Of a DNA stretch of 64,000 nucleotides, positions 16,545 through 52,592 are shown piece by piece. Below the pieces are notes generated by a model. That model ran no database searches and was not told where the DNA came from. It saw only the letters and a program-made list of their open reading frames with translations. The first letter of the stretch is position 1; the number at the start of each line of letters is the position of its first letter. The stretch spans positions 8,925 through 72,924 of the forward strand of contig JAIOHU010000287.1 in NCBI GenBank assembly GCA_019912845.1, given 5' to 3'. This DNA is from a bacterium. GTDB taxonomy: Bacteria > Electryoneota > Electryoneia > Electryoneales > Electryoneaceae. The position numbers and the translations under genes are program-made.

Positions 16545-16675
16545 CTGACCCACGACGTCACCTCGTATTCTAAAATCTCGTTCCACTGAATCACCCATTC
16601 CAAGACTCCACCAGCTTGTTTATTACAGCAAAATGATAATTGGCTGGCTTCGTATTTTCATAAACCTGCGACCAA

Positions 16676-17707
16676 TTATTTCAATACATATCCCAGGCTG
16701 AAACGATGCCATCCGCCCAGGTATTGGATTGTCGCATAGGTATAATCAACTTTGAGACCAATATTCCGCATGTACAAACCACCACCAAAACTCATCCCGG
16801 AAAATGAGACCATACCCTCTTCATCGAATACAGGGTATTCATAGAATGGGTTGTTATCTTTGTCTTCAACGTACTCTTCGTTCGAACTGCGTTTCCAACC
16901 GTTAATCTTTTTTCCGAAACGAAGCATCGCTGTCTCTTTGAAGGCATATTCAAAGCCGAGATGGACTTCTTCTGAGTTATCGTTGGGGTGTGTACCTTCC
17001 AAGCCCATGGTCAGACGGCTGTCATCTTTTTGCATAAGATCGACCGCTGTAGCAAACTTAAAGTTCTGAGGTAATGGGAAAGGAGTGGTTACATGCTGCA
17101 TATCCGGGCCGAAGTTGGAGATCAACATTGCGATACGCAGGGATTTCCACCCTGTATCGTAAAATGTGCCAACATCAACAGCCCATCCGAGAGCGTTTTC
17201 ATCAGCCAGATTCTCCTGGATATACTTGACTGATCCACCAACGGAGAACTTATCAGTTAACCTTTGGCTGTAACTAATCGCCGCTGCAAAGTCAGTAGCT
17301 CTAAATGTCTGACCATTTCCGTAGGGAAGCTGATAGGTAGTTACTGGCATATCATCTGTATATAGTGCCGTCATAGATGCGCCCACAGCAGCACCGTACA
17401 TCGGAAGTGGCATAACGCCGCCGATGTAGTCGAAGTTTACCCCTAACCCAGATGGAAAGGCCACATGGGTAAAGATCAACTCCTTCTTCTTGATATTCAC
17501 CAGTCCAGCAGGATTGTAGTATAACGCTGATGCGTCATCCGCTATCGCAAGAAACGCATCTGCCATAGCAACCGCACGCGAAGACACCCCAATCTTGAGG
17601 AAATTCACCCCGGTCGTTCCTACCTTGGCCTGACCAAACACCAGACCCGGAATGATCAGCGCAACAGCTAATCCGATTGCAAACCATTGCTTGCGCGTCA
17701 TGTTCAC
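16676..17707 (-). CDS. FadL/PorV-family outer-membrane beta-barrel (candidate T9SS shuttle, PorV-like)
   Basis: A signal peptide is present. The N-terminal block VGTTGVNFLKIGVSSRAVAMADAFLAIADDASALYYNPAGL matches the FadL/PorV hallmark (..ADDAS..NPAGL). The C-terminus is aromatic. It sits directly between two T9SS cargo genes, 8 nt after the upstream one. Confidence 0.5.
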   Translation of the reverse strand: MNMTRKQWFAIGLAVALIIPGLVFGQAKVGTTGVNFLKIGVSSRAVAMADAFLAIADDASALYYNPAGLVNIKKKELIFTHVAFPSGLGVNFDYIGGVMPLPMYGAAVGASMTALYTDDMPVTTYQLPYGNGQTFRATDFAAAISYSQRLTDKFSVGGSVKYIQENLADENALGWAVDVGTFYDTGWKSLRIAMLISNFGPDMQHVTTPFPLPQNFKFATAVDLMQKDDSRLTMGLEGTHPNDNSEEVHLGFEYAFKETAMLRFGKKINGWKRSSNEEYVEDKDNNPFYEYPVFDEEGMVSFSGMSFGGGLYMRNIGLKVDYTYATIQYLGGWHRFSLGYVLK

Positions 17708-32922: not shown

Positions 32923-33077
32923 ATTTACGATATCCTGACTTGCTTTATTGACTCACGAATCCACTATTACGTGTAGTATATAACTTTGAGCTTACTGTAA
33001 ATCATACTAGATTGCTAGTGGAGAGAATAATTCATTGTACGTCTGCCTGCAATGCACTGGCAAATTCTGGAGGGAAC

Positions 33078-36000: not shown

Positions 36001-36125
36001 GTATTTCAAAATCTGGCGTTCATACGATCAGTTGGGATGGAGCTGGATACAGCGCGGGAATGTATTTTCTCAGCATTCAAGCTGGATCAGTTCACAATAT
36101 TCAAAAATTGATTTTGATGAAATAG
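33078..36125 (+). CDS. Subtilisin-like serine peptidase (S8 family) with a T9SS C-terminal sorting domain
   Basis: The signal peptide is MRFLKHGAGISLLLLSLTCSLFAQ, with GGAGGG 5 nt upstream. The catalytic His block HSTHVAGTMIG and Ser block GTSMASPNLAGS are present. The C-terminus is ..YPNPFNPTVSVEVSL..VVYDLLGREV..GMYFLSIQ..KLILMK. Confidence 0.8.
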   Translation: MRFLKHGAGISLLLLSLTCSLFAQTTTNRDALLILSDEYTQLFESQRGAEYEALINTATGPIARLNRSDNIELMGIDETGRLLYFGMNNLVAAQSLSTDEVWPGGQSGYDIDGTNTGFGELAEWDGGGVLTTHQEFNNFVVQMDNPADVHSHSTHVAGTMIGRGVNPSARGMSNGAWLTAYDWNNDTGEMAGAAAEGTKVSNHSYGAVAGWHYDAGDWYWFGDMGVDEEEDYQLGRYTSEARRYDEIMFNAPYYTICKSAGNDRGDGPNQQPIMHYVMQGQNWVESTQFHEREGGADGFDSVPHAGNAKNIITVGAVNDVDNGYNGPGSVSMSSFSCWGPTDDGRIKPDLVANGIQLISSVASDDDAYASYSGTSMASPNLAGSMNLVIQYYKQTHDGEAPLSATAKGLLIHTADECGPHDGPDYMFGWGLMNTWHACDVIAEDVDLFFPIQERILEDQQEDHYFYVSDGDEPITITICWTDRPGNQAPREINPDDYFALMNDLDVRLYHVEEEQMYFPYILNPDNPSAAATTGDNFRDNVEKIYLENPEPGTYRVDVTHKDELTFNLPQAYSIITTGVIWEDDPRVSPDNLSATLDDASGAVNLSWELEEENPGFIEFVIYRDGDEIERTTDLEYSDNLVDFGKYVYAVTSVWDAGESTPSDPVAVNWYEPVAPRFLNVTSYDTLSGALSFSWKHLRDRELKFDDGSAEDTRRFNLAGGIFAVRFSVEKEGQPTEVGAEFGGEVENYGEMTWLIYAAGDDSLHPGELLYEGDNFVPQNSGWEWKKVGDTVSEMVPGDEYWVGLRWNQANRTDVGWDTEGEQYMRGSFSPDGETWSGLQGPLRGNPMIRTKYGEVENFGDEIDELFDYQVYRNDELLANTQESLFDDVLPDMGEYRYTVHALYDQGEAISNPLIVNGGETSVSESLQPATFVIGKAYPNPFNPTVSVEVSLRVAGTLHAVVYDLLGREVAVLATGISKSGVHTISWDGAGYSAGMYFLSIQAGSVHNIQKLILMK

Positions 36126-36247: not shown

Positions 36248-38398
36248 ATGCCATCTGATTCTGTAAATAAGACTGAGAAAACTGATCAACCTCGCACGAA
36301 TCACTTTGCGCCCATGATCGAAGTCGGACGTGTATGCCTCGCTTCTTATGGTATCATGGCATTTGTGAACCATCCTCTCCCTGCGCTGCTCATATTTCTG
36401 GCGACATTTTACCATCCTGTGATCGGTCTGATGGGTTTGCTGGGTAGCTTAATCTCAACTCTGACCGCACGTTGGGTGGGTGCACACCCCGCTGCCTGGC
36501 GTAGTGGAGTGCATGGTGTCAGTGGTATGTTGATCGGGTTGGCAATCGGGATGTACGCCCAGATCGAGATCAAAACGATTCTCTTCACGATCATCGGCAC
36601 CGCTTCTGTAGGAGTGATCAGTACACTCCTGGGAGCCACCCTCGCAAAACATGATCTTCCGATTCTAAGCCTTCCCTTTATGTTGATGATTTATCCAGTG
36701 CTGATTTCTGTCGGCGTGGAACATATCGATAGTCAAAGTTATCCTGCGATCGCTTTTTTACGTGATATTGATGTCTGGCTCTTCAGTGTGCTGCCATTGA
36801 GTCTATTTGAATTTATCAAAATGTTCGGAAATATTCTGTTCCAGGAAAACTTGATTTCCGGGGTTCTGGTGCTGCTTGGAATTGGTCTGTGGTCACGTAT
36901 CTCGCTTGGTTATGCGCTGTGGGGTGGGCTTCTCGGACTGGGAACATACTATTTTCTACATGGCTCGCTGGATGGATTTCATGGTTTGAATTATGTACTG
37001 ACAGCATTGGCTTTTGGTGGCTTTTTCCTCGTCGCCAACCATAACGCCTTTTATTTTGCTTCTCTGGCGATTGTAACGGTTGGTCTGGTGGACTATGCGG
37101 CATTTCAATTCCTGAATCCCGAAACAACGCTATCTTTATCAAACCTTCCTTCCGCCATTCGTACTTCCACGCAAGCTGAAAAGATACCCACGCTTGTTTT
37201 CGCATTTAATGTTGTCACCCTTGCCTATCTATTTCCGCTGAAAATAGCACAACTCAATCGTCAAAGATCGAAATTGGTTCCCGTCCCCTTGGAGCTGATA
37301 AAGAATCCAGAAACAAACATCCGTCTCGCTCGACGATGGGAACAGAATAAGTACATCCAGAAAACCCGCCTCTCCTTTCCATTCCTGGGAAGCTGGGTGG
37401 TTTTTCAGGGTCACAATGGCGAGTGGACTCATAAGGCGAAGGGAAAATATGCCTGGGATTTTGTCGTGGAAGATGAACAGGGGCAAATGTACCGTAACGC
37501 CGGATTGAATATTGAGGACTATTACTGTTTCGGGCTTCCTGTATTTGCACCAGCCCCAGGTACGATTGTACGACTTGAATCCGATGTTGAAGACAATCCG
37601 CCAGGAACAGCGGTCACAGAACGTAACTGGGGGAACTATGTCATCATCGACCATGGCAACGGCGAATTTTCCGAAATCAGCCACTTCAAGAAGGGATCTA
37701 TTACGGTCGGGTTGGGAGCCGTGATTCAACGTGGGCAGTTGCTGGGATACTGCGGAAATTCCGGCAGGTCGCCTGTTCCGCATATTCATTTTCAATTACA
37801 GGATGCAGTTCGTCCCGGTAGCGAGTCTCTTCCCGCTTGTTTCGCTGAGAGTATTGTCAACAACGAGATTCGCTTGAACACAGTGCCTGAGAAAAATGAT
37901 ATCCTCAGTTCATTGGATATTGACGCTGAAGCTGAATGGGGATTACTGGGACGCGAAGAAGAAATATGGGAATTTTCGGTTCGCTTGGGAATGAGACGAT
38001 TTACGGAAATCCTCTATTTTGTCACCGATGTCTATGGGATGCCCTCAATTGTCAGCAAAAACCAGCATCAGTGGTATATCCTTGATAAGCCGCATTTTGT
38101 GCAACTATCGCCCGACTTCAAAACCTTCCCAACCCTACTTGCGCCTAGTGGCTGGGTGGAATTGATTGGTGACGCACTCTTCCTGCCGAAAACATTGACA
38201 ACAGACCTTCACTGGGAAAATGGAGAAATTCTGGATGAAAAAGGTAAGCATTGGACAATCAAAACAAATGGCAGAAAAATAGTGATCGATGTGGAAAAAA
38301 ATGTTATTCTATCTGCTTCCATCGACAACAAACCCGACTTTGAACTGCGTCTGATCCGTAGGATACTTCCCAATGGTTCAGTTGAAAATATCTCATGA
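36248..38398 (+). CDS. Fusion protein: urea-transporter (UT-family)-like membrane domain + M23 (LytM-type) metallopeptidase domain + C-terminal domain of unknown function
   Basis: The N-terminal ~330 aa are polytopic and carry UT-family-like blocks (..GRVCLASYGIMAFVNHPLPALLIFLATF..; ..GLLGSLISTLTARWVG..; ..GVHGVSGMLIGLAIGMY..). The central part has the M23 motifs ..KGKYAWDFVVED.. and ..GQLLGYCGNSGRSPVPHIHFQLQ.. (the HxH zinc site). About 200 aa of unassigned sequence follow. Confidence 0.55.
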   Translation: MPSDSVNKTEKTDQPRTNHFAPMIEVGRVCLASYGIMAFVNHPLPALLIFLATFYHPVIGLMGLLGSLISTLTARWVGAHPAAWRSGVHGVSGMLIGLAIGMYAQIEIKTILFTIIGTASVGVISTLLGATLAKHDLPILSLPFMLMIYPVLISVGVEHIDSQSYPAIAFLRDIDVWLFSVLPLSLFEFIKMFGNILFQENLISGVLVLLGIGLWSRISLGYALWGGLLGLGTYYFLHGSLDGFHGLNYVLTALAFGGFFLVANHNAFYFASLAIVTVGLVDYAAFQFLNPETTLSLSNLPSAIRTSTQAEKIPTLVFAFNVVTLAYLFPLKIAQLNRQRSKLVPVPLELIKNPETNIRLARRWEQNKYIQKTRLSFPFLGSWVVFQGHNGEWTHKAKGKYAWDFVVEDEQGQMYRNAGLNIEDYYCFGLPVFAPAPGTIVRLESDVEDNPPGTAVTERNWGNYVIIDHGNGEFSEISHFKKGSITVGLGAVIQRGQLLGYCGNSGRSPVPHIHFQLQDAVRPGSESLPACFAESIVNNEIRLNTVPEKNDILSSLDIDAEAEWGLLGREEEIWEFSVRLGMRRFTEILYFVTDVYGMPSIVSKNQHQWYILDKPHFVQLSPDFKTFPTLLAPSGWVELIGDALFLPKTLTTDLHWENGEILDEKGKHWTIKTNGRKIVIDVEKNVILSASIDNKPDFELRLIRRILPNGSVENIS

Positions 38399-38726: not shown

Positions 38727-38757
38727 AAAATTCGTTTTCTATATGGGGGAAGTTTTC

Positions 38758-41700
38758 ATGAAAACTCGAATCCTATCCTATTTGATTCTCGTATTGTTCT
38801 TCCTGATTCCATCTTCTGGTTTCGCACAGGATAGTCTTGGTATTTCACATGAAAGTATATCCTATTCTTTCTGGGATTATGCTACAGATGCTGCGATCTC
38901 TGGGAATTACGCTTACATCGGTACACGAGAGACCGGGATAAAAGTGGTTGATATCTCTGATATCGCTAATCCCTTTGAAGTTGCGCAGTGTCGTCTAGCT
39001 GGGAATGTGCAACAGGTTGCCATTTACGATGAATATCTTTTTGTGCCATGCGACTATGAGGGTATGTATATTATCGATGTGTCAGTCCCTGAAGACCCGG
39101 AAATTGTCTATCGCTACACACCTCGTCGAGCTTTTGAAGTTACTTTTTATGATCACTACGCATTTGTAACAGTTGTCAGTGATGGTTTCAGCATCCTGGA
39201 TATTACAAATCCTGCAGAACCAGAATTGGTAACCAATGTAAACCCTCCAAACGGTATGGTTAAACATTTAAAACTTACCGAGACCCACGCATTTGTAGGC
39301 AAAAACATTAGCGAAATGTTAATCTACAATATTGAAGATATTGAAAACCCTGTGCAGGTGGGAACAGCAGAACACAATAATACTATCGATGATATGGAAC
39401 TTGTTCAAGAGGACTACCTTTATGCCATCAGTGAGTATGGTCATCTGCAGATATTTAACATAAGTGATCCTGAGAACGTGGAAATGGCTGCTGTATTTGT
39501 AGATTATAACTACACTGAAATGACACAGGCATTCCCATATCTTTTCGTTCGCTCTGGTGATACCTCACAATATGTTCTTGATATTTCTGATCCTCTCAAT
39601 CCGGAAGAAGTTACCTTCCTGGGTAATTTGCCATGGCATCGTGTTGTGATTATTGATGATCAAAATGCAATCGCATGCTCTGGTGAGGATGGCATATTCA
39701 CACTGGATTATCAGAACATTGCAGAGATTGAGGAATTAGGAGTTTATGATACTGAAGGACGAGTATATGGAGTGTGTCTATGGGATCACTACGCTCTGCT
39801 TTCAGGAAAAGACTATGGACTTATGATTGTAGATGTATCAGAACCCTCTAATCCGGTAGAAGTTGGTCACTATCAATCCGAGGGCAGGATCATCAATGTC
39901 GAGGTTATGGATCATTACGCTTTACTCGCCAACCAGGAGCTCGGGCTTGAAATTATCGACATTATTGATCCTGCCAACCCACAATTAGTCAGCCAGTTTG
40001 AGAGCCAGGACGGATATCGCGCAGTTGCAGTGGATGGCAACCTGGTCTTTGTGTCGGGAGGGAATCGTCAAGGGTTGGATATTCTTGACTGTACTGATCC
40101 TGTGAACCCTGAATTACTCTCCAATACCTGGATCGGTTATGAATGCAGGGGAATAGATATACAGGGAAATTACGCTTATCTGGCAATGGCGTACGGTGCA
40201 GTTTCGATTGTTGACATAAGAGATCTGACAAATCCAGAGGTAATCGCAGCTTGGGGTGAAGATACTCATATAGAAGAAATCGTTGCTTACAATGATATTA
40301 TTTTCGCTGCAGAATGGAGCTATGGAGTGACGATGTTGGATGTTTCAGATCCCACAAGGATATTCGAAATTCATCATTTTGATACTGGAGGTAATGTTCG
40401 GGACGTCTTTATTGCCAATGATTTACTTTATGTCGCTTCTGAGGGAACTGGGTTGTATATAATTGACCCCAATGATCCAGATTTTGCTGTTGTTGGGTAT
40501 TATGAAACCATCAATCGTCTGATAACTGTTGTCGCTGATGGACGGTACGCTTACATGGGCGAAAAATTCAGTTTCCAGATTTTTGATTGTGGAGAAGCGG
40601 TTGGATATGATCTAATAGAACGAACGCCACATTATGAAGCTGTTCTTCCTACAAACCGACCCTATTCAATTATCATCAATAATGCAACTTGGAATGAATT
40701 ACCGCTCACCGAAGGAGATGAAATCGGCGTTTTTGATGGGAACCTTTGCGTTGGAGCTGCCATACATGAAGGTGACTTTCCATTGGAAATAACCGTGTGG
40801 GAAGAGAATGAAGCGGAAGGGCTGGGAGGGTTTACTGTCGGTAATGGAATCAGTTTTCTTGTTTGGCAAAGTGAGGCTGAGGCTGAATATCAGGTTGATG
40901 TTGACTGGATTGAGGGGGATGGTTTATTCGGATTTGATCCTCTAACCGTAGCGGAATTAACCCTTCACAATCAACCCCTCCTTCAAATAAACCTGCGTGG
41001 CAACTACCATAACCTGGTTTCCAGCTATCTTGTGCCGGATGAATTGGGGTTTGAAGAGGTATTCGGTGGGATTAATAACCTGCAAATCGTGTATGAGGAC
41101 GAAGGCGATATCTTTATTCCGGGTATTCCTACAGTTGGAGAAGTAGACAACAGAGAAGGTTACAAGATTTTCACATCTGAACCCTCTACATGGCACACCA
41201 CTGGTACACCTCTGGATCAGGGTATAGAATTCGAATTATTTGCAAATCGTTGGAACTGGCTAGGGTATCCCTTCGGAAATGAACGTCCTCTGGAAACAAC
41301 CCTCAGTGAGATTGAGGATCAGCTTGTTGCGCTTCTGACCGATGACGGTGGCATTTATATCAATAATCCTCCACAATTTGTAATCAACACAATTGGAAAT
41401 CTGGAAGCTGGAAAAGGGTATATGGTTTTTGTAAACGAGGATGTTTCTTTCGAGTATCTTTCTGATACCTGGCTTGAACGTACTCCCACAACACCGCAAA
41501 TAACCGATATTCCTATTGTCGAAGGTGCCCCTGAACCTACCGGATTACCCTATGTTGTTGTCATCTCGAACTATGAACATCTGGCTGATAAATCAACCAT
41601 TGTCGAGCTTTACGATGGTGAAATACTGGTCGGGAAAGGGCTGTTACTGGAGGATCAACCAGTCACACCAATCCTCGCCTGGCAGGGGGACAGCGAACAC

Positions 41701-42132
41701 AACATGATCGGATTTGAGCCTGGTAATCCGATTCACCTCAAGCTCCTGGCAGCCAATGGCGATGTACTGGTGGACCGTATAGTCGAGGGTGTGCAGTACG
41801 GCGACGCCCCTTATGCGCTGCTGGAATTATCAAATATACTTCCTGAACAGTCCGAAGACTTTTCCCTGCCGGGGCATTTTACAGTTCAAAATGCTTATCC
41901 CAATCCGTTCAACTCGACACTATCCATTCCATTTTCACTGCCCCATTCATCGCAGGTAACCATTCAGCTTTATAATGTCCTCGGGCAACTGCAATCTGAA
42001 GCAACCCAGCAGTTTGAAGCAGGAAAACACATCTACTCAATTCAAGGTGAGCAGCTTGTGAGTGGATTGTATTTTCTGAAAGTGGAAATGGAAGGGCAAA
42101 CATTTATGCAGAAAGTGGTGTTGCTCAAATAG
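38758..42132 (+). CDS. LVIVD-repeat beta-propeller surface protein with a C-terminal shared module and a T9SS sorting domain
   Basis: The signal peptide is MKTRILSYLILVLFFLIPSSGFAQ, with GGGGGA 7 nt upstream. At least 12 LVIVD-type repeats are present (VVDISDIANPFEV, IIDVSVPEDPEIV, ILDITNPAEPELV, IFNISDPENVEMA, VLDISDPLNPEEV, IVDVSEPSNPVEV, IIDIIDPANPQLV, ILDCTDPVNPELL, IVDIRDLTNPEVI, MLDVSDPTRIFEI and others). The C-terminus is ..AYPNPFNSTLSIPFSL..IQLYNVLGQL..SGLYFLKV..KVVLLK. Confidence 0.7.
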   Translation: MKTRILSYLILVLFFLIPSSGFAQDSLGISHESISYSFWDYATDAAISGNYAYIGTRETGIKVVDISDIANPFEVAQCRLAGNVQQVAIYDEYLFVPCDYEGMYIIDVSVPEDPEIVYRYTPRRAFEVTFYDHYAFVTVVSDGFSILDITNPAEPELVTNVNPPNGMVKHLKLTETHAFVGKNISEMLIYNIEDIENPVQVGTAEHNNTIDDMELVQEDYLYAISEYGHLQIFNISDPENVEMAAVFVDYNYTEMTQAFPYLFVRSGDTSQYVLDISDPLNPEEVTFLGNLPWHRVVIIDDQNAIACSGEDGIFTLDYQNIAEIEELGVYDTEGRVYGVCLWDHYALLSGKDYGLMIVDVSEPSNPVEVGHYQSEGRIINVEVMDHYALLANQELGLEIIDIIDPANPQLVSQFESQDGYRAVAVDGNLVFVSGGNRQGLDILDCTDPVNPELLSNTWIGYECRGIDIQGNYAYLAMAYGAVSIVDIRDLTNPEVIAAWGEDTHIEEIVAYNDIIFAAEWSYGVTMLDVSDPTRIFEIHHFDTGGNVRDVFIANDLLYVASEGTGLYIIDPNDPDFAVVGYYETINRLITVVADGRYAYMGEKFSFQIFDCGEAVGYDLIERTPHYEAVLPTNRPYSIIINNATWNELPLTEGDEIGVFDGNLCVGAAIHEGDFPLEITVWEENEAEGLGGFTVGNGISFLVWQSEAEAEYQVDVDWIEGDGLFGFDPLTVAELTLHNQPLLQINLRGNYHNLVSSYLVPDELGFEEVFGGINNLQIVYEDEGDIFIPGIPTVGEVDNREGYKIFTSEPSTWHTTGTPLDQGIEFELFANRWNWLGYPFGNERPLETTLSEIEDQLVALLTDDGGIYINNPPQFVINTIGNLEAGKGYMVFVNEDVSFEYLSDTWLERTPTTPQITDIPIVEGAPEPTGLPYVVVISNYEHLADKSTIVELYDGEILVGKGLLLEDQPVTPILAWQGDSEHNMIGFEPGNPIHLKLLAANGDVLVDRIVEGVQYGDAPYALLELSNILPEQSEDFSLPGHFTVQNAYPNPFNSTLSIPFSLPHSSQVTIQLYNVLGQLQSEATQQFEAGKHIYSIQGEQLVSGLYFLKVEMEGQTFMQKVVLLK

Positions 42133-44949: not shown

Positions 44950-45852
44950 TTATTCACGCGTCATGTAAAATCTGGCTTCCACTTTTGATACAGCTCCAAA
45001 AATCCCGAGACCGCCATGGATATTTGATTCCTGTTTTTCGGTTAATCCCTGACGCATCCTGAAGGATGAAAACAGGAAATCATAGTATTCTGGAGAAACC
45101 GCAAGTATACCAATCCGGTATTCTCCAATCCAACGAAACAAAAACCAGGGAATGGTGACAACCTGTTGATCCTCTCTAAATACAGAGTAGCCACCCCGGT
45201 TTGGATTATCAGGATTTGTATCACCGAATTCACCCACATCCCACTCTGGATCGAGTGGAATCAGCTCCGGCGAAAGAGACAAGACAAAATAGCTGTAACC
45301 GCCAGCATATTCCACCGGTTGCCAGCCAATTTTAATCTCCTCATGCCCAAGAGTTAAAAGCTCCGCTTCCAACTCCCAGAAGGGCTGAACTTCCACCGTA
45401 TCTGGAGCATTGTGCGGATTTAACCAGACAACGCTATCCATTTTACCGGGTACTGTTGTTTTAGCCCAGAGAGAATCAGTTCCTGTCACCGTTGTAAGCA
45501 ATAATTCCTGACCGGATTGTGGCGTGATGCCACCGCCGACCGGTATATACACTCCACTACTATCCGGGTGAGGGTGATCCTGAAATGCAAAAGAATCGAC
45601 GATAACGCCTTCCTCACAAGTGTACACATTAACATCCGCACCAGCTATTCCTTGCTGTGAGAAACTGTAATAAACATCGATAGAGGCAACTCTTTCGAGA
45701 TAGACTCTCTCCAATGGTTCGCCATTACAGGGAAAGGCACTCAAGACCAGTTGTGACTCATAGTCCTCCACCTCTGACGGTTGTGTGGAACAACCTCCCA
45801 GAATGAGGTGGAATAAAAAAATTGCAAATAGAATGAGTTGACTGGATTTCAA
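44950..45852 (-). CDS. Lipoprotein of unknown function (bracketed by two copies of repeat family A)
   Basis: The ORF track starts at TTG 45909. A more plausible start is TTG at codon 20 (45850-45852), preceded by AGGAA, which gives (M)KSSQLILFAIFLFHLILGGC, a signal peptide with a lipobox. No recognisable catalytic motifs are present. Confidence 0.4.
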   Translation of the reverse strand: MKSSQLILFAIFLFHLILGGCSTQPSEVEDYESQLVLSAFPCNGEPLERVYLERVASIDVYYSFSQQGIAGADVNVYTCEEGVIVDSFAFQDHPHPDSSGVYIPVGGGITPQSGQELLLTTVTGTDSLWAKTTVPGKMDSVVWLNPHNAPDTVEVQPFWELEAELLTLGHEEIKIGWQPVEYAGGYSYFVLSLSPELIPLDPEWDVGEFGDTNPDNPNRGGYSVFREDQQVVTIPWFLFRWIGEYRIGILAVSPEYYDFLFSSFRMRQGLTEKQESNIHGGLGIFGAVSKVEARFYMTRE

Positions 45853-45905
45853 GTTGTTCCTGTTGGTTTGTGAGGTATGTTGTTGTCGTTCTTCAATGGA
45901 ATATT

Positions 45906-45975
45906 TCAATACCTTCCTGGATACCAGCTAAGAGCATGCTGGTATGACGCAATCGGACTATACTATCGAGAAACG
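45906..45975 (+). repeat. Intergenic repeat element family A, copy 2 (hairpin TACCAGC-N9-GCTGGTA)
   Basis: TCAATACCTTCCTGGATACCAGCTAAGAGCATGCTGGTATGACGCAATCGGACTATACTATCGAGAAACG. It is in the same orientation as copy 1 and lies ~55 nt upstream of the lipoprotein gene. Confidence 0.5.
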
Positions 45976-46187: not shown

Positions 46188-49100
46188 TTACTTCAGCAGA
46201 GTAATCTTCTGAGTAAAGGTCTGACCGTTAAACTGCGTGGTCAGGAAGTACACACCAGAAACCAGTTCGGTACCAGAACGATTCGCATCGAATACGAAGC
46301 GGTGGAAGCCAGCCTGGAAATGCTGGGATGTATTGAATACCTGCTGACCGAGAACATTATACACTGCGAAGCTGACTTCACCGTTCATCGGAAGTGCAAA
46401 CGGAATGGTCACACTTGGGTTGAATGGATTCGGATAGCCCTGGTCGACCGCGAACTCTGTTGGAACTGGTGCGACATCGAGGTTCAACAGGGTGTATGCA
46501 CCCTTGCCGAACTCCGGTGCATCATCGTTCATATGAACGACTGGTAGCACAGTACCATCAGCCGCTTTGACCACAAAGCGCATTGAATTGCCACTGATGA
46601 AACCTTCGAGATTACGATCAGCATCACCCTGCCATGCAGTTACCGGTGTGTAATCGCGATCATCAAGGATAACACTCTTACCTACAAGAGTCTTGCCATC
46701 ATAAAGTTCGATGATTGCAGGGTTTAATTCCTGAAGATCATCGCTCATGCTGAGCACGACTGTGTAAGGAAGACCTGTTGCTTCTGGAGCACCTTCAACC
46801 GCTGGGATATCCCAGACATCATGCTTGGTGTTTCCTGCGGCAACAGCATCATTGTAAGTGAAGTCAACAGCTTCATTCACGAAGAACATGTACCCTTCAC
46901 CAGGGGTCATATCACCAATTGTGTTAATGTCAAACAGTGGTGGAATCCATACGCCACCATCATCAGTCTGCACAATTTCTACGAAATCACGAATGTGATT
47001 CAGTGCTTCAATTGTGTTGACATCATGGTTGAATGGATAGCCAACCCAGTTCCAACGATTCGGGACAGCATGATATTCGGTATCGGTTGGAATAGGATCA
47101 CCAACAAAGGTAACCATGGAGTTTGCATCACAGAATAGACGATAACCCTGATCCATGGAAATATCAACGATGGTATTGATGAACGGCGGAATTACAATGC
47201 CACCATCATTCTGATAAGCAATTGCGAGATCTGGAATACCACCAAAGATATCCATGGCATTCAGACTTTCTGGTTGAATGTAAGATGAAATTAATTCGAA
47301 ATAGTTACCCTGAAGCGGTATTTCGAGTTCATTATCAGGTTGAATTTCACCTTCACCCCTTACAGTCAATCTGGAGTACGGTGCATAACCAAAGGTACCA
47401 TCACCCTGGGTATATTCAGCTTCTGCATCCATGATTTCACCAGTTACACTATTCCAAATCTGGAAAGTCATAGTGTTGCCAGGTGTAAATCCTGGGAATG
47501 CAGGATCTTCGGACATTTCCCATGCGATAAGCGAACGTGGGTATTGACCATTCATAGCAGTCGCACCGACACAAAGATCACCATCATATACAGCAACACC
47601 GGAGCCGGCTGGTAGAGGATTGTCGCCCTCAAAAGCACCATCGAGAATCAGTGAGTAAGGCAGACCATTCGGATCTACCGGGTTAAAGATTCCACCAGCA
47701 CCATAAATAAGTGTTACCCATACTGTTGCAATTTCACCTTGATGATGATTTGGATCAATTTCGATCAGCGCTTCGTAAGAACCTTCTGCCATTTCAAGAT
47801 CGGTTACATCTGCGATCAAGTCGACATCCATTTCTTCACCGATAGGAATTAAACCATCACCCGGTTCAACTGTCAACCAGCCACCTTGACCAGCATAAAG
47901 GGTAGCGTAGGCAATTGTGTTACCAAGAATATCTGCATTTACCCAGTCAAGAATCCAGCCGATTTCCCACGTCATGGTTGATATGAGAATCGTACCACGT
48001 CCCATTTCCATTTCGACCAGGGTTGGCTGACCGAGAGAAGTGGTTGCAAGAATATTTGCATCTTCTGGAACATCATTGATGATATCATGTGAGTCAGAAC
48101 CACCAGTCCACTGCTCTGGAATGTTCATCATGATTCCATGTTCTGGCATATTGTTAAAACCAGTACCACTTGGCGCATAGGTATTGCTCATGCCCCAGAG
48201 GTTCCAGGTATATGCCTGTGTACATCCACCGAAGATAATCCAGCCACCATCATCCATGAAGTCGAGGAAACGTTCCTCATTATCTTGAACTGTATTCAGG
48301 AAGTTCTGACTTTGAACGTTCGTGAAGATGATACAAGAGTATTCACCGAGATCATGATTAGCCATCTGTCCTGAATTGATGATGTCATAAGGCACTTCCA
48401 TTGCATCAAGGAAGGCTTGGTGTGCAGGAGCACCCCAGGCATCAGTGTCTTGAATAATCAGGAAGTAAGGATCATCCAGCTCATTTGTATATGGAGCTGT
48501 TGGGATACTCGGATATGCGTTAATATCTGTGGATGGTGCATGATTGAAATCTACCGCACCTTTAGCCAGCGTACGATTAAGAATGTAATCACGCGCATTT
48601 TCACGCATCGTGTTAACTTCTTCTTCTTCAATGTAGACAACACTTGCATCCCAATCCATATCCAAGCCACCTGCGTTTCCGATGGTCAGAACATCTGAAT
48701 CTGTATCGCCTTCTTCCGGGATGACAAATATAAACTCATTCGGGTTCAGGGTAACAAACGGTGGAATATGATGGTCAATTTCGATATCCAGAGTCGTTGT
48801 CTCACCTTCGATGAGCGCAACTGTCATGATATCTGAGGCATAATAATCAGCAGCCGTTGCCTGTACATCCCAGTCACCTGTACCTAATGGATAGGCATAG
48901 TAACCATTTTCATCAGTTTCAACTTCAGCAACTGGTTCTTCCAGGTCACCCCAGATTGTTACCAGTGCACCTTCGACAGGATCGCCAGTTTCATTGTCAC
49001 TGACAACACCTTCCAGTGTACCTGGATCACCAATAAGGAAAGTTACCCAGACAGTTACAGGATCAAGTGTATCTGGCCATGCAACATTAAAGTCGATGGT

Positions 49101-52100
49101 AGCTTCATAAACACCAGGAAGCTCAGCATCAATCGCATTGGCAAGAACATCAATCTCAACTGTTTCATCAATGTCGAGGTGTCCGCTATTCGGCTCAATT
49201 GCCAGCCAGCCACCCGCGCCGGAGGCGACTAAGAGCGCGTTCGCCATGAGACGATCACAATCAGTTGCCGGGTTCCAACCACCATTGATAGCATCATTAG
49301 AGGGTGGGAAGAGACCTAATGCAACAGTAATACCGTTGTCCATCTGGTCACGGACCGCTGCAACCGCACGTCCATCACCCCAGTCAGCAATACGAAGCGC
49401 TTCGGGATGGACATCAAAAGTTGACTGACGATAGGAAGAGGTACCACCATCTAGTTCTTCGATTTCTTCCATCATCAGGTGGTTCGCTTCAAAAACTTCA
49501 CCTAATGTCTGCTGCGGACCATATTGGTTTCCTGATGGCGGGAATGCATAATAACCTTCAGCATTCCAACGACCCTGCATATAAACACCGGCTGATTCGA
49601 ATACAGCATGAACAACGCCGTAGCCTTCATCAACATAGTCAGCCATTACATTGCCAACGCCGATGTAATCCAGATAGCCGTAGTTTGTCCAAGTCATTAC
49701 CGCATCGAATTCCATCAGTTCTTCTAGACTGGGTAAAACATTACGCGCATCAACAATCGTAATAGTTTCAAAGAGTTCTAATGCTGCCAACTTGTTTGCA
49801 ACATCATCTTGATAAATTACATCGTCAGCCGGATAAAGCAGAATATTCGCATTATCAAGCTCACCATTTCCATCAATTACGCGTGCGATTTGATCTGGAC
49901 GAGTTACAACGTCCGGACCGTTGGCACCAAGCGTGGTTGCTAATGGATAATTGGTAATTGGACCATCAAGAATACCAGAACGTGCGATCCAGTTCTCGAC
50001 AACCGCTTCTCTACGTGCTTGCTCATTGTTACCACGTGCTGCAATTTCATCTTCAATATAGGTAATGCTGCCAGACCAATCGGCTGGCAAACCACCGATA
50101 TTGCTGAGCGTCAGGATATCACTGTCTGAACCAAGCCAACCCGCTTCAAAATCAAAGAATTCGGGATCAACTACGAGTTCAGGTGCAACTTCGTGGACCA
50201 ATGCGATATCGTGAACTGTTGCCTCACCTTCAATAACTGCAGCAGTTTCGATGTCAGACGGATAATAACCCATCGCATCTGCCATCACATCCCATTCACC
50301 CGTTCCGAGTGGGTAGGTGTAAAAACCTTCTGCATCTGTTTCAACTTCAGCTACTGGTTCTTCGAGGTCACCCCAGATTGTTACCAACGCACCTTCGATT
50401 GGATCACCTGAGTCTACGTCATAGACAATACCTTCAAGAGAGCCGGGATCGCCAACATTCATGGTTACCCATGAAGTTACCAGAGCACCTTCTTCTGTGC
50501 CATCATTATACCAGACATCAATTGAAGCTTCATAGATACCAGGAAGGTCTACATTTGAAGCATCAACAGTTACATCGAGATCCATAATGCCAGCGGGTTC
50601 AACAGTTCCAGCATCAGGTTCAACTGTCAACCAGTTGCCAGAGCCAACCCACAACGCATCGTATTCAATCATGTTGTGCATGATGTCGCCAGCAACCTGA
50701 CCAGCACCTACACCATATTCAAGCGTCTGGGTGCTGACAATCATGTTACCACCGCCATAAGGCAGTTCAAGAAGAACTGGACGCTGTTGTGTATCTACGC
50801 AAAGAATCAAGGCATCTTCAGGAACATTGTCAATCCAGCCATGATTTGCGGACCCACCAGTGTAATTTTCAGGAATGCCTTCCATCATTGGATGGTCAGG
50901 CATCACGACCTGGTTATTGCCATCGCCTTGATGCACATAGTTCATGTCATTCCAGAATGTCCAGGTCGCCCCTTGAGTACAACCGTGGAATTCGAGACAA
51001 CCACCGCCATCAACCCACTCTTCAAAGCGATCAGCATTGTTCATGAAGTTGTTGTAAAAACCCTGACCCTGGGTGGATGGGATCATGATAACATTGTATT
51101 CTTCCGCTTCAAAGTCGTAGTCTGCCATTGACGCAGAGTTGACCAGGTCGAAAGGAATACCAAGTTCGTTCAGATAATCTTGATGTGAATTATTCCAGGG
51201 AATCTGATCCTGGAACAACAGGAAGTAAGGATCATCAAGTTCACTGAATTGAGGTTCGGTAGGAACAACATTGAAGATATCACTTGACGGACCGTTGTAT
51301 TCAATTGTGGTACCACGAGTTGCACGGAAATTAGCTGCATTTTCGCGTACCATTCTACGGAAGTCCATAATTTCTTCATCTTCGATGTAGGTAATGTCGA
51401 CCCAGAAATCGATGTCGGCACCACAATCGCCAAGATGTGTAACTGTAAGGATATCAGAATCGGACGCAAGCCAACCCACATCAAATGTGAATTGATCGGG
51501 GTCCACCATGAGTTCTGCCAGTGGATCCATTTCGATATCCACAACATTTTCGCCTTCTTCCAGCACGACATCCACTTCAGTCAAGGCGAAGCCTTCAGCC
51601 ATTGCACGAGCAGTGTAGCCACGTGAATAGACGCCTTCAATCATGTAGTAACCATCTGCATCGGTGGTTGCCATCTGGTTACCGAAGTATACTTCAGCAC
51701 CCTCAACAGCATCCCCATCACATGCATCAGTCACAACACCTTCAACCGAAGCGTTGGGATCTGCGAATCCACCTTCATTGATAGTGAATCCAACTGCGGT
51801 TTCAGCTTGGGGGGTATTGCCGGCATTGTTGTAGCAATATTCAAGACCGTCAGTACCTTCAGCATTTTCAATACCGATGGTAACAAAGTCCCGGTTAAGG
51901 TTGGGAGTCATGCTGTGGTATTGAATCACGATATCGCCAGATTCATACAAAAGGATTTCTGCATTGATATTTTCTTGATCCGGACCATCTGGGTATTCAT
52001 CCCAGTCGACAAACTGAATAACGGTAAAGTCACCCATATTTTCAATGTAAGCCATACCATCATCGCCAGCGTCTGGATCCATATCACGCCACCACCAGGC

Positions 52101-52592
52101 AATCAGGTTGTTTGGTGCCCAGTTTGATGGAAGTGTCTGGTTGCCAAGGTCCCACATGGCATCTTCAGAAAAACCGATCATACCATTGGAGCCGAGGAAA
52201 AACTGATCGTATGTGTTGCCATAAAACTCAAAATCAAATCCAAGAGCGAAAGGACCTGTATAGTCATCGTCAAATGGAATGGCTAGTGCTTCACCGGTTT
52301 CGGTGATATCAAGCCAATCATAGGCAGGACCATTTGCCTCATCGCTGTCAAAATAATAATAACCAAAGTTATCTGGACCGCCGGTGCGGTCAAGCTCATT
52401 ATGGCCTTCAACAATAACGCCAGCAAAAGTGAGAATTTCATGCTGACGTTCAGTCAACTGATTCCCAAGTTTGTAAGCGTTAATTGCTTGCTTGTATTCA
52501 TCGTAACGTGAATCCTTCAGGGTGGTGTTATCTACCGCAAAGGCAGCCGTTACAAGGAAAGCTAGCAAAAGCAGTACTGAAGCAACTCTCAT
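46188..52592 (-). CDS. Giant (2134 aa) modular T9SS-secreted surface protein with a triplicated internal module and a C-terminal module shared with the LVIVD protein
   Basis: The signal peptide is MRVASVLLLLAFLVTAAFA. There are three copies of a ~440-470-aa unit (a CarbopepD_reg-like start EGVVTD../EGIVYDVDSGDPIEGALVTIWGDL../EGVVSDNETGDPVEGALVTIWGDL.. followed by a ..ELDDPYFL..DGGG..HGCTQ.. domain). The C-terminal ~420 aa are homologous to the LVIVD protein. The tail ..QGYPNPFNPSVTIPFAL..VYNVLGQQV..SGVYFLTT..KITLLK is a T9SS domain. Confidence 0.75.
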   Translation of the reverse strand: MRVASVLLLLAFLVTAAFAVDNTTLKDSRYDEYKQAINAYKLGNQLTERQHEILTFAGVIVEGHNELDRTGGPDNFGYYYFDSDEANGPAYDWLDITETGEALAIPFDDDYTGPFALGFDFEFYGNTYDQFFLGSNGMIGFSEDAMWDLGNQTLPSNWAPNNLIAWWWRDMDPDAGDDGMAYIENMGDFTVIQFVDWDEYPDGPDQENINAEILLYESGDIVIQYHSMTPNLNRDFVTIGIENAEGTDGLEYCYNNAGNTPQAETAVGFTINEGGFADPNASVEGVVTDACDGDAVEGAEVYFGNQMATTDADGYYMIEGVYSRGYTARAMAEGFALTEVDVVLEEGENVVDIEMDPLAELMVDPDQFTFDVGWLASDSDILTVTHLGDCGADIDFWVDITYIEDEEIMDFRRMVRENAANFRATRGTTIEYNGPSSDIFNVVPTEPQFSELDDPYFLLFQDQIPWNNSHQDYLNELGIPFDLVNSASMADYDFEAEEYNVIMIPSTQGQGFYNNFMNNADRFEEWVDGGGCLEFHGCTQGATWTFWNDMNYVHQGDGNNQVVMPDHPMMEGIPENYTGGSANHGWIDNVPEDALILCVDTQQRPVLLELPYGGGNMIVSTQTLEYGVGAGQVAGDIMHNMIEYDALWVGSGNWLTVEPDAGTVEPAGIMDLDVTVDASNVDLPGIYEASIDVWYNDGTEEGALVTSWVTMNVGDPGSLEGIVYDVDSGDPIEGALVTIWGDLEEPVAEVETDAEGFYTYPLGTGEWDVMADAMGYYPSDIETAAVIEGEATVHDIALVHEVAPELVVDPEFFDFEAGWLGSDSDILTLSNIGGLPADWSGSITYIEDEIAARGNNEQARREAVVENWIARSGILDGPITNYPLATTLGANGPDVVTRPDQIARVIDGNGELDNANILLYPADDVIYQDDVANKLAALELFETITIVDARNVLPSLEELMEFDAVMTWTNYGYLDYIGVGNVMADYVDEGYGVVHAVFESAGVYMQGRWNAEGYYAFPPSGNQYGPQQTLGEVFEANHLMMEEIEELDGGTSSYRQSTFDVHPEALRIADWGDGRAVAAVRDQMDNGITVALGLFPPSNDAINGGWNPATDCDRLMANALLVASGAGGWLAIEPNSGHLDIDETVEIDVLANAIDAELPGVYEATIDFNVAWPDTLDPVTVWVTFLIGDPGTLEGVVSDNETGDPVEGALVTIWGDLEEPVAEVETDENGYYAYPLGTGDWDVQATAADYYASDIMTVALIEGETTTLDIEIDHHIPPFVTLNPNEFIFVIPEEGDTDSDVLTIGNAGGLDMDWDASVVYIEEEEVNTMRENARDYILNRTLAKGAVDFNHAPSTDINAYPSIPTAPYTNELDDPYFLIIQDTDAWGAPAHQAFLDAMEVPYDIINSGQMANHDLGEYSCIIFTNVQSQNFLNTVQDNEERFLDFMDDGGWIIFGGCTQAYTWNLWGMSNTYAPSGTGFNNMPEHGIMMNIPEQWTGGSDSHDIINDVPEDANILATTSLGQPTLVEMEMGRGTILISTMTWEIGWILDWVNADILGNTIAYATLYAGQGGWLTVEPGDGLIPIGEEMDVDLIADVTDLEMAEGSYEALIEIDPNHHQGEIATVWVTLIYGAGGIFNPVDPNGLPYSLILDGAFEGDNPLPAGSGVAVYDGDLCVGATAMNGQYPRSLIAWEMSEDPAFPGFTPGNTMTFQIWNSVTGEIMDAEAEYTQGDGTFGYAPYSRLTVRGEGEIQPDNELEIPLQGNYFELISSYIQPESLNAMDIFGGIPDLAIAYQNDGGIVIPPFINTIVDISMDQGYRLFCDANSMVTFVGDPIPTDTEYHAVPNRWNWVGYPFNHDVNTIEALNHIRDFVEIVQTDDGGVWIPPLFDINTIGDMTPGEGYMFFVNEAVDFTYNDAVAAGNTKHDVWDIPAVEGAPEATGLPYTVVLSMSDDLQELNPAIIELYDGKTLVGKSVILDDRDYTPVTAWQGDADRNLEGFISGNSMRFVVKAADGTVLPVVHMNDDAPEFGKGAYTLLNLDVAPVPTEFAVDQGYPNPFNPSVTIPFALPMNGEVSFAVYNVLGQQVFNTSQHFQAGFHRFVFDANRSGTELVSGVYFLTTQFNGQTFTQKITLLK

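What the first reader, a model, noticed from the sequence alone, without database searches (positions are those of the whole stretch)
40600..41890. ~420-aa conserved module shared by two otherwise unrelated giant T9SS cargo proteins, placed immediately before the sorting domain
The LVIVD beta-propeller protein (nt ~40600-41890) and the 2134-aa giant protein (nt ~46433-47699) share a long colinear region. The aligned blocks include YSIIINNATWNELPLTEGDEIGVFDGNLCVGA versus YSLILDGAFEGDNPLPAGSGVAVYDGDLCVGA, and NRWNWLGYPFGNERPLETTLSEIEDQLVALLTDDGGIYI versus NRWNWVGYPFNHDVNTIEALNHIRDFVEIVQTDDGGVWI. Further blocks are EGAPEPTGLPYVVVISNYEHLADKSTIVELYDGEILVGK versus EGAPEATGLPYTVVLSMSDDLQELNPAIIELYDGKTLVGK, and TPILAWQGD versus TPVTAWQGD. 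The module is a good candidate for a stalk or anchoring domain that precedes the T9SS tail. It would present different N-terminal heads, the propeller versus the triplicated module, on the cell surface.
Basis: seen in the sequence. Interest (0 to 1): 0.55.

Follow-up and report, generated by a model that had tools for sequence, protein, structure and literature searches.

The report
Shared pre-tail cassette in T9SS cargo
Two unrelated secreted proteins carry the same ~410-residue, four-domain block directly in front of their type IX secretion tail; the block belongs to a large family with no match in the domain or structure libraries searched, is attached to many different functional 'heads' in uncultured FCB-group bacteria, and most likely forms a common cell-surface base for them.

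Summary
ORF1 (38743-42132, +; LVIVD propeller) and ORF2 (46188-52592, -; 2134 aa) share 41% identity over 511 aa (E = 3e-108). The shared stretch is a ~410-aa block plus the T9SS type A C-terminal domain (CTD); nothing else in the two proteins matches.

The block is a duplicated four-domain cassette, A-B-B-A'. A and A' are homologous, and so are B1 and B2. It has no Pfam, NCBIfam or PDB-sequence match, and FlgD_ig does not hit it.

A profile search of 1.84 billion representatives finds 15,834 proteins. Of the 156 family proteins held, 119 have a cassette that reaches its end. In these it ends a median 96 aa from the C-terminus, and the proteins range from 488 to 7635 aa with many different heads. 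One MAG carries at least 23 loci. Some proteins are only signal peptide, cassette and CTD.

Three other T9SS cargo proteins in the window lack the cassette, so it is not part of the obligatory export signal. The best reading is a shared membrane-proximal base or anchoring cassette that is shuffled together with its own CTD subtype. That function is inferred, not shown.

The parts
38743..42132 (+). ORF1, 1129 aa. Order of parts: Sec signal peptide (aa 1-28 by eye, ...SSGFA|QDS), LVIVD beta-propeller head (aa ~40-620), cassette, T9SS type A CTD.
   Evidence: ORF list, translation. Pfam LVIVD E = 1.6e-48 and Por_Secre_tail E = 5.8e-12. TIGR04183 at 50.6 bits against a cut-off of 23.
40633..40968 (+). 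ORF1 cassette domain A (aa 631-742). Seven-strand beta-sandwich with the motif GDEIGVFDGxLCVG.
   Evidence: BLASTP. hhalign A against A': probability 99.7%, E = 4e-25; 99.9%, E = 4e-35 with deeper alignments. AF2 strands.
40969..41226 (+). ORF1 cassette domain B1 (aa 743-828). Motifs: NLVSSYxxP, IVYxDxG, xTVG/NTIG, EGY.
   Evidence: hhalign B1 against B2: probability 98.8%, E = 7e-17. AF2 of B-B: pLDDT 97, pTM 0.90.
41227..41460 (+). ORF1 cassette domain B2 (aa 829-906). Motifs: RWNWLGYP, TDDGGIYI, INTIGNLxxGKGY. This is the most conserved part of the family.
   Evidence: Near-invariant columns W210, N211, G242, N253, G261, G263 and Y264 in 146 family members.
41461..41526 (+). ORF1 linker between B2 and A' (aa 907-928). 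Poorly conserved; model residues 279-287 have pLDDT below 50.
   Evidence: AF2; alignment.
41527..41832 (+). ORF1 cassette domain A' (aa 929-1030). Second copy of the A fold (EPTGLPY..., ELYDGEILVGK, TPILAWQGD, GFxPGN).
   Evidence: hhalign; AF2.
41896..42129 (+). ORF1 T9SS type A C-terminal sorting domain (aa 1052-1129), ending KVVLLK.
   Evidence: Pfam PF18962 and TIGR04183. 49% identical to the ORF2 CTD against 33-39% for either cassette-linked CTD versus the three cassette-less CTDs in the window.
46188..52592 (-). ORF2, 2134 aa. Order of parts: signal peptide, repeated head (CarboxypepD_reg x3, ThuA-like x2, BACON/Ig-like), cassette, T9SS type A CTD.
47340..47687 (-). ORF2 cassette domain A (aa 1636-1751).
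   Evidence: BLASTP alignment to ORF1; hmmsearch with the A2 profile.
46851..47339 (-). ORF2 cassette domains B1 and B2 (aa 1752-1914).
   Evidence: BLASTP; member of alignment A5.
46476..46790 (-). ORF2 cassette domain A' (aa 1935-2039). It follows a short linker (aa 1915-1934, nt 46791-46850).
   Evidence: BLASTP.
46191..46436 (-). ORF2 T9SS type A C-terminal sorting domain (aa 2053-2134), ending KITLLK.
   Evidence: Pfam PF18962 at 29.7 bits (cut-off 27) and TIGR04183 at 36.6 bits (cut-off 23).
16676..17707 (-). Context: a PorV/PorQ-family T9SS outer-membrane protein encoded in the same window. It shows that this organism has T9SS machinery.
   Evidence: NCBIfam NF033709 at 189.4 bits (cut-off 90); Pfam PorV E = 4e-11.

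Best explanation
The shared region is a self-contained cassette of four domains, A-B-B-A', fused to its own subtype of T9SS type A C-terminal domain. A and A' are about 105-aa beta-sandwiches. B1 and B2 are about 80-aa small beta domains that pack into one didomain.

The roughly 500-aa unit has been recombined onto many unrelated heads in uncultured FCB-group bacteria. Heads include LVIVD propellers, S8 peptidases, FG-GAP, PKD/fn3/Ig arrays and CarboxypepD_reg/ThuA-like modules.

Proposed mechanism, all inferred:
1. The protein crosses the inner membrane through Sec.
2. The CTD directs export through the T9SS.
3. The CTD is removed and the new C-terminus is attached at the outer membrane, as happens in Porphyromonas gingivalis.
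4. A' then lies next to the membrane, and the A-B-B-A' block becomes a common membrane-proximal base that holds the variable head away from the surface.

The cassette is more conserved than the heads, occurs in more than 20 paralogues per genome, and also exists without any head. It therefore probably does more than add distance. I propose that it makes a shared contact, either with an outer-membrane or LPS component or with neighbouring cassettes. That would be functionally comparable to the SLH or CWB2 anchoring triplets shared by Gram-positive surface-protein paralogues.
For: Shown:
- 41% identity over 511 aa between otherwise unrelated proteins.
- Internal duplications: A/A' E = 4e-25 to 4e-35, and B1/B2 E = 7e-17.
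- Confident AF2 models: whole cassette pLDDT 86 and pTM 0.75; B-B pLDDT 97 and pTM 0.90.
- 15,834 representatives at E of 1e-3 or better, 9,252 at 1e-10 and 2,661 at 1e-30.
- Of the 156 family proteins held, 146 contain B-B. In 119 the cassette reaches its end, and there it stops a median 96 aa from the C-terminus (IQR 93-102), in proteins of 488-7635 aa.
- 54 of 62 members scanned have Por_Secre_tail, and their heads are diverse.
- The last strand of A' is only about 3-10 residues from the first CTD strand.
- 23 of 26 loci found in GTDB species genomes come from one MAG, often as adjacent genes.
- Headless proteins of signal peptide, cassette and CTD exist: P0001, and P0070 (= L019).
- The cassette is better conserved than the heads. 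In the cassette HSPs, which also include the CTD and sometimes part of the head, identity is 38-53%, against 22-42% in head-only HSPs.
- Cassette-linked CTDs form a subtype: 49% identity to each other against 33-39% to the cassette-less CTDs, and 94-112 against 68-80 bits to a profile of cassette-linked CTDs.
- A PorV/PorQ-family gene is in the window.

From the literature: CTD cleavage by PorU and attachment to A-LPS in P. gingivalis (abstracts of PMC8545088 and PMC4804311).
Against: - No experiment or binding-site evidence exists. The function rests on position and distribution only.
- CTD removal and A-LPS-type attachment have been shown in Bacteroidota, not in this lineage. Many type A cargo proteins in Flavobacterium are released rather than anchored.
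- A domains also occur at N-termini and in arrays of up to 15 copies. A-B-B units without A' or a CTD exist. The parts are therefore not intrinsically tied to a membrane-proximal position.
- Compactness is judged from pTM only. I could not inspect inter-domain errors.
Confidence: 0.45

Rival explanations
1. Substrate- or particle-binding module. The cassette would be an adhesin or carbohydrate-binding-like unit that tethers enzymes and propellers to polymers, particles or other cells. It would sit next to the CTD only because accessory binding modules are usually C-terminal.
- A domains are repeated up to 15 times in giant Calditrichota 'choice-of-anchor D' proteins that look like adhesins.
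- Headless cassette proteins would make sense as stand-alone binders.
- A-B-B proteins without a CTD exist.
Against: - The fixed distance to the C-terminus (IQR 93-102 aa) and co-inheritance with a CTD subtype are not expected for a freely shuffled binding module.
- The best-conserved residues are Gly, Pro, Asn and Ser turn residues plus one W-N pair in the B domains, not an obvious aromatic platform.
- The cassette accompanies heads of very different specificity.
Confidence: 0.25
2. Extended secretion or sorting determinant. The cassette, especially B-B-A', would be recognised by a dedicated T9SS shuttle or processing component (a PorV/PorQ-type, PorU or PorZ-type protein). It would decide the route or final destination of this subset of cargo, or serve as a folded 'handle' for very large cargo.
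For: - There is almost no linker between A' and the CTD.
- The cassette and the CTD subtype travel together.
- B-B is the most conserved part, and many paralogues in the MAG keep only B-B-A'-CTD.
- Work in Flavobacterium shows that specialised shuttle proteins direct cargo to its final destination (PMC12618676 abstract).
Against: - Three other type A CTD cargo proteins in the same window lack the cassette: the S8 peptidase, the penicillin amidase and the beta-helix protein. It is therefore not needed for export as such.
- Type A CTDs alone suffice for secretion in studied systems (my own knowledge of the field; not checked in the papers read here).
- Cassette parts also occur far from any CTD, and in proteins without a CTD.
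Confidence: 0.15
3. A trivial explanation: the similarity reflects a recent local duplication or gene conversion, low-complexity sequence, or an already catalogued Ig-type domain such as FlgD_ig.
For: The two genes lie only about 4 kb apart, on opposite strands. FlgD_ig appears in 18 of 62 family members.
Against: - Identity is only 41% at the protein level, with thousands of equally distant relatives in other organisms.
- Where FlgD_ig coordinates were seen, in two proteins, the match lies inside the CTD and not in the cassette.
- The cassette has no Pfam or NCBIfam hit and no PDB hit better than E = 0.13 (those few are to unrelated proteins), even with thresholds relaxed to E = 10 (E = 1 for NCBIfam).
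- B-B-only fragments carry no precomputed Pfam annotation.
Confidence: 0.02

Closest known systems
Immunoglobulin-like (IgSF) domain between the catalytic domain and the CTD of Porphyromonas gingivalis gingipain RgpB, and similar pre-CTD beta-sandwich domains in T9SS cargo (the domain order in RgpB is from my own knowledge; PMC4804311 appeared but only its abstract was seen)
   Same: A beta-sandwich element lies directly upstream of a type A CTD and would remain on the mature, surface-attached protein.
   Different: Here there is a 410-aa, four-domain duplicated cassette rather than one Ig domain. It has no detectable sequence relation to any Pfam Ig family. Its B-B didomain has no PDB structural neighbour. 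It is shared by dozens of paralogues per genome and exists without any head.
SLH-domain triplets and CWB2 triplets of Gram-positive surface proteins (for example the Clostridioides difficile cell-wall protein family) - a functional analogy from my own knowledge
   Same: A conserved multi-repeat block is shared by many paralogous surface proteins that differ in their functional domain. Headless or minimal members exist.
   Different: There is no homology: no Pfam SLH or CWB2 hit. The organisms here are diderm, the cassette is coupled to a T9SS tail, and binding to an envelope polymer is only hypothesised.
Prealbumin/transthyretin-like sandwiches (CarboxypepD_reg, CnaB, CBM20/26/41, secretin pilotins AspS and ExsB)
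   Different: Sequence identity is 5-15%. Profile-profile comparison of A with the CarboxypepD_reg domains of ORF2 itself gives a probability below 1%. The similarity is at the level of a common fold only.
NCBIfam 'choice-of-anchor' domain families
   Same: The concept is the same: conserved extracellular domains that recur next to sorting signals. The ORF1 head is a sub-threshold choice_anch_B (LVIVD) match, and relatives are annotated as choice-of-anchor D.
   Different: No choice-of-anchor model or any other NCBIfam model matches the cassette.

Membership tests
T9SS type A cargo (the whole proteins ORF1 and ORF2) | C-terminal type A sorting domain above the curated thresholds (Pfam PF18962, TIGR04183) | tested here: met
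   ORF1: 46.2 bits (cut-off 27) and 50.6 bits (cut-off 23). ORF2: 29.7 bits and 36.6 bits.
T9SS type A cargo (the whole proteins ORF1 and ORF2) | N-terminal Sec signal peptide | tested here: met
   Read directly from the translations: ORF1 MKTRILSYLILVLFFLIPSSGFA|Q, ORF2 MRVASVLLLLAFLVTAAFA|V. No signal-peptide predictor was available.
T9SS type A cargo (the whole proteins ORF1 and ORF2) | T9SS machinery encoded by the same organism | tested here: met
   A PorV/PorQ-family protein at 16676-17707, NF033709 at 189 bits (cut-off 90). Core components (PorK/L/M/N, Sov) were not looked for because they lie outside the window.
T9SS type A cargo (the whole proteins ORF1 and ORF2) | Demonstrated T9SS-dependent export and CTD cleavage | not testable with these tools
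   This needs experiments in a carrier organism.
FlgD_ig (PF13860) or another catalogued Ig-type pre-CTD domain (cassette) | A significant profile match within aa 631-1040 of ORF1 or aa 1636-2043 of ORF2 | tested here: not met
   Pfam scan of the cassette alone at E up to 10 gives only two noise hits (E = 0.09 and 0.18). NCBIfam gives none. Where FlgD_ig coordinates were seen in other proteins, they fall inside the CTD.
CarboxypepD_reg / prealbumin-like superfamily (A and A' domains) | Detectable sequence or profile homology | tested here: not met
   hhalign of the A and A' profiles against the three CarboxypepD_reg domains of ORF2 gives probabilities of 0.1-0.2%.
CarboxypepD_reg / prealbumin-like superfamily (A and A' domains) | Same fold (seven-strand sandwich) | tested here: inconclusive
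Carbohydrate-binding modules CBM20/26/41 | Fold match plus conserved aromatic sugar-binding residues | tested here: inconclusive
SLH / CWB2 anchoring repeats | Sequence homology | tested here: not met
   No Pfam hit. The comparison is a functional analogy only.

The most novel reading that the evidence does not exclude
The B-B didomain is a new protein fold, and A-B-B-A' is a dedicated envelope-docking or self-assembly platform. It would be the diderm, T9SS-coupled counterpart of SLH/CWB2 anchoring. Through it, Electryoneota-like, Calditrichota, Fidelibacterota and related FCB bacteria would mount dozens of different enzymes and binders onto one organised surface coat, with the headless cassette proteins acting as filler or lattice subunits.
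Probability: 0.2. Interest if true: 0.7.

Novelty: new variant of a known kind. Interest (0 to 1): 0.5.

Why it matters
T9SS biology is known almost entirely from a few Bacteroidota, and this cassette comes from outside them.

- **Scale.** The cassette marks a large class of T9SS cargo: thousands of 50%-identity clusters, and more than 20 paralogues in a single MAG. They come from uncultured FCB phyla that are abundant in marine and sediment samples. I found no description of the cassette in the domain, structure and literature resources searched.
- **Annotation.** A sequence model of the A and B domains would annotate about 400 residues that are currently blank in each of these proteins. It would also define which secreted peptidases, propellers and giant adhesin-like proteins are likely to stay on the cell surface.
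- **Structure.** The B-B didomain is a confidently predicted structure with no solved relative.
- **Open question.** If the cassette proves to be a common anchoring or assembly platform, it would explain how these organisms organise their extracellular degradative machinery.

Tried and rejected
**Tool failures and thin results**
- Foldseek of the whole four-domain model against the PDB gave only generic tandem-Ig or adhesin hits, with TM below 0.17. This was uninformative for a multi-domain query.
- The afdb50 library was not installed, so the model could not be compared with predicted structures.
- The search for related loci with the broad alignment A2 failed because it had no conserved 7-10-mer. 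It was rerun with the closer set A4. That scan is pattern-limited, so the four genomes it found understate the distribution.
- The word-indexed protein search found only 9 relatives, and with the B-B profile mostly short fragments. The exhaustive HMM search was needed to see the family.
- The look-up of encoding contigs for the two window-edge proteins found nothing, probably because of start-codon differences. I could not walk beyond the window to count further copies in this genome.
- Literature searches combining 'type IX secretion' with Fidelibacterota or with Calditrichaeota returned no papers. A broader T9SS/CTD search returned nothing with Marinimicrobia among the listed papers. The Ca. 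Electryoneota paper does not mention T9SS.

**Ideas rejected**
- A is a diverged CTD: hhalign probability below 2%.
- A is a CarboxypepD_reg copy borrowed from the ORF2 head: probability below 1%.
- The conserved Cys in the A motif CVG is catalytic or forms a cross-link. A' of both window proteins has Leu at that position.
- The similarity comes from a recent duplication or gene conversion: identity is only 41% at the amino-acid level.
Full report
**1. The observation**

The window holds two long ORFs at the stated places:
- ORF1, 38743-42132 (+), 1129 aa.
- ORF2, 46188-52592 (-), 2134 aa.

BLASTP gives a single colinear alignment of ORF1 aa 631-1129 with ORF2 aa 1636-2134: 41% identity, 59% positives, 511 columns, E = 3e-108. 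The only other sub-threshold HSP is an internal cross-match between two parts of the same module.

The heads are unrelated. ORF1 has an LVIVD beta-propeller (Pfam E = 1.6e-48). ORF2 has three CarboxypepD_reg domains, two ThuA-like domains and BACON/Ig-like domains.

Both proteins end in a type A T9SS sorting domain above the curated thresholds, and both begin with a signal peptide visible in the sequence. No third copy exists in the window (tblastn; hmmsearch --max). The one amendment is that the homology continues through the CTD, so the shared unit is about 500 aa.

**2. Anatomy of the module**

The 410 residues are not one domain. Profile-profile comparison shows two internal duplications:
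- A (module residues 1-112) against A' (299-400): probability 99.7-99.9%, E = 4e-25 to 4e-35.
- B1 (113-198) against B2 (199-276): probability 98.8%, E = 7e-17.
- A and B are unrelated to each other.

The architecture is therefore A-B-B-A', with a poorly conserved 20-residue linker before A'.

AlphaFold2 with a 10-sequence alignment gives an all-beta model with pLDDT 86 and pTM 0.75. The B-B pair, modelled with 53 sequences, gives pLDDT 97 and pTM 0.90. I take these pTM values to suggest a compact unit rather than beads on a string, but I could not inspect the PAE.

Across 146 family members the most conserved columns lie in B1 and B2. They include S132, P137, the N-T-I-G motifs, G-Y, W210-N211 and G242. 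The last strand of A' is only 3-10 residues from the first CTD strand (LPxEF..YPNPFNP).

**3. Is it a known domain?**

No, as far as the available libraries show.
- Pfam on the cassette alone, at E up to 10, gives only two noise hits.
- NCBIfam gives nothing in the cassette.
- phmmer and profile searches of all PDB sequences give nothing meaningful.
- In 62 family members, no Pfam family recurs other than the CTD families and the head domains.
- Where FlgD_ig coordinates were seen, in two proteins, the match falls inside the CTD and not in the cassette.
- B-B-only fragments carry no precomputed Pfam annotation.

A is neither a diverged CTD nor a CarboxypepD_reg copy.

**4. The family**

*Size and position.* An exhaustive HMM search of 1.84 billion representatives with the cassette profile (CTD excluded) finds 15,834 proteins at E of 1e-3 or better, 9,252 at 1e-10 and 2,661 at 1e-30. 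These counts include proteins that carry A domains only.

The next figures refer to the 156 family proteins held after that search. Of them, 146 contain B-B. In 119 the cassette reaches its end, and there it stops a median 96 aa from the C-terminus (IQR 93-102). That distance is one CTD. The proteins range from 488 to 7635 aa. Of 62 members scanned, 54 have Por_Secre_tail.

*Heads.* They include S8 peptidases, FG-GAP, PKD, fn3, HYDIN-type Ig, Big_9, Omp28-like, transglutaminase-like, PEGA/CarboxypepD_reg, BACON and LVIVD.

*Variant architectures.*
- Some proteins are nothing but signal peptide, cassette and CTD: P0001, and P0070 (= L019).
- Many paralogues keep only B-B-A'-CTD.
- A alone forms arrays of up to 15 copies in giant Calditrichota 'choice-of-anchor D' proteins.
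- A few proteins are signal peptide plus A-B-B with no A' or CTD.

*Copies per genome.* A pattern-limited scan of GTDB species genomes returned 26 loci. Of these, 23 come from a single MAG (CAZCRQ01), often as adjacent genes.

*Lineages.* Named carriers are Calditrichota, Fidelibacterota, Ca. Kapabacteria, Cloacimonadota (Ca. Syntrophosphaera) and a Bacteroidia MAG.

*Source organism.* The window's isocitrate dehydrogenase is 100% identical to a protein from an NCBI '[bacterium]' contig of 127,677 bp. It is 84% identical to that of Ca. Electryonea clarkiae, in the FCB group.

**5. Relation to the secretion signal**

The window encodes a PorV/PorQ-family protein and five type A CTD proteins. 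Three of these lack the cassette: the S8 peptidase at 33012-36125, the penicillin amidase at 57990-60134 and the beta-helix protein at 12345-16598. The cassette is therefore not required for T9SS export as such.

S8 peptidases occur both with the cassette (L021, L018, P0016) and without it (this window).

The two cassette-linked CTDs are more alike (49% identity) than either is to the three cassette-less CTDs (33-39%). They also score higher against a profile of cassette-linked CTDs from other organisms: 94-112 bits against 68-80 bits. Cassette and CTD thus appear to be inherited and shuffled as one unit.

The cassette is better conserved than the heads. In the cassette HSPs, which also include the CTD and sometimes part of the head, identity is 38-53%. 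In head-only HSPs it is 22-42%.

**6. Mechanism**

This section is inference. In P. gingivalis the CTD is cleaved by PorU and the new C-terminus is linked to A-LPS (abstracts of PMC8545088 and PMC4804311). If the same happens here, A' would be the membrane-proximal domain, and A-B-B-A' would be a common base carrying variable heads.

Three features suggest more than a passive spacer: conservation higher than in the heads, dozens of paralogues per genome, and headless members. I propose a shared interaction, with an envelope component or between cassettes. This would be functionally comparable to SLH or CWB2 triplets, although the cassette is not homologous to them. I give this reading a confidence of about 0.45.

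The rivals are:
- an external ligand-binding module (0.25);
- an extended sorting or destination determinant recognised by a dedicated shuttle (0.15);
- a trivial explanation, which the tests reject (0.02).

**7. Verdict**

The feature is real and highly significant, and it is absent from every domain and structure library searched. It is a new domain cassette within a known kind of system, the modular T9SS cargo protein. Its B-B didomain currently has no solved structural relative.

The 'stalk or anchor' interpretation is plausible but unproven, and too simple. Interest is moderate: the cassette is a worthwhile target for domain curation, structure determination and localisation experiments, but it does not change how the T9SS is understood.

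Noticed in passing
window 16676-17707 (-), with neighbours 12345-16598 (-) and 17716-20448 (-): A PorV/PorQ-family T9SS outer-membrane protein (NF033709, 189 bits). It lies between a 1417-aa beta-helix/Ig cargo protein with a weak type A CTD and a 910-aa ORF that has no Pfam or NCBIfam hit. The 910-aa ORF could be an unrecognised T9SS-associated component.
   Followed up: partly
window 36248-38398 (+): A 716-aa ORF that combines a urea-transporter (UT) membrane domain (aa 29-330) with a C-terminal M23 peptidase domain (aa 429-519). This is an unusual fusion, and it lies directly upstream of ORF1.
   Followed up: no
window 33012-36125 (+), 57990-60134 (+), 12345-16598 (-): Three further T9SS type A cargo proteins (S8 peptidase, penicillin amidase, beta-helix protein) that lack the cassette. 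The 64-kb window thus holds five CTD proteins in all. The window's S8 peptidase carries repeated fn3-like 'YRDGDE/YRNDEL' domains where relatives carry the cassette.
   Followed up: partly
window 46188-52592 (-), aa 1-1635 of ORF2: The ORF2 head is internally repeated: CarboxypepD_reg x3, ThuA-like x2, and BACON/Ig-like 'WLTVEP/WLAIEP' units x3. Its N-terminal ~70-275 region recurs in other cassette proteins at different positions (P0023, P0025, P0042). This indicates domain shuffling inside the heads as well.
   Followed up: partly
L003:3843-5498 (= P0004) and L017:4155-6701 (= P0129); also P0308, P0312, P0314, P0319, P0321: Some relatives stop right after B2 (...FQYQPQRR*, ...FQYDQAAR*). Others are signal peptide plus A-B-B with no A' or CTD. 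It is unclear whether these are real CTD-less variants, pseudogenes or frameshifts.
   Followed up: no
L003, L011, L013, L017, L021, L022 (MAGs CAZCRQ01 and CAZYOC01): Genes carrying the cassette or A domains often lie in adjacent pairs on the same strand, which suggests tandem duplication. One MAG accounts for 23 of the 26 loci found.
   Followed up: partly
P0011 (5376 aa), P0012 (4497 aa), P0024 (4333 aa), P0100 (7635 aa): Giant proteins with 9-15 dispersed copies of the A domain; P0024 and P0100 also end in a full cassette. Where a source name exists (P0012, P0024) they are Calditrichota 'choice-of-anchor D' proteins. In about half of the multi-A proteins seen, an A domain sits immediately after the signal peptide.
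   Followed up: no
window 26680-27999 (-): This isocitrate dehydrogenase is 100% identical to an NCBI '[bacterium]' protein on a 127,677-bp contig and 84% identical to that of Ca. Electryonea clarkiae. The window therefore probably comes from an Electryoneota-like FCB-group MAG. ORF1 and ORF2 themselves did not appear in either protein search.
   Followed up: partly
window 44950-45909 (-): A DUF4249 protein is encoded immediately downstream of ORF2, on the same strand. Its relation to ORF2 is unknown.
   Followed up: no
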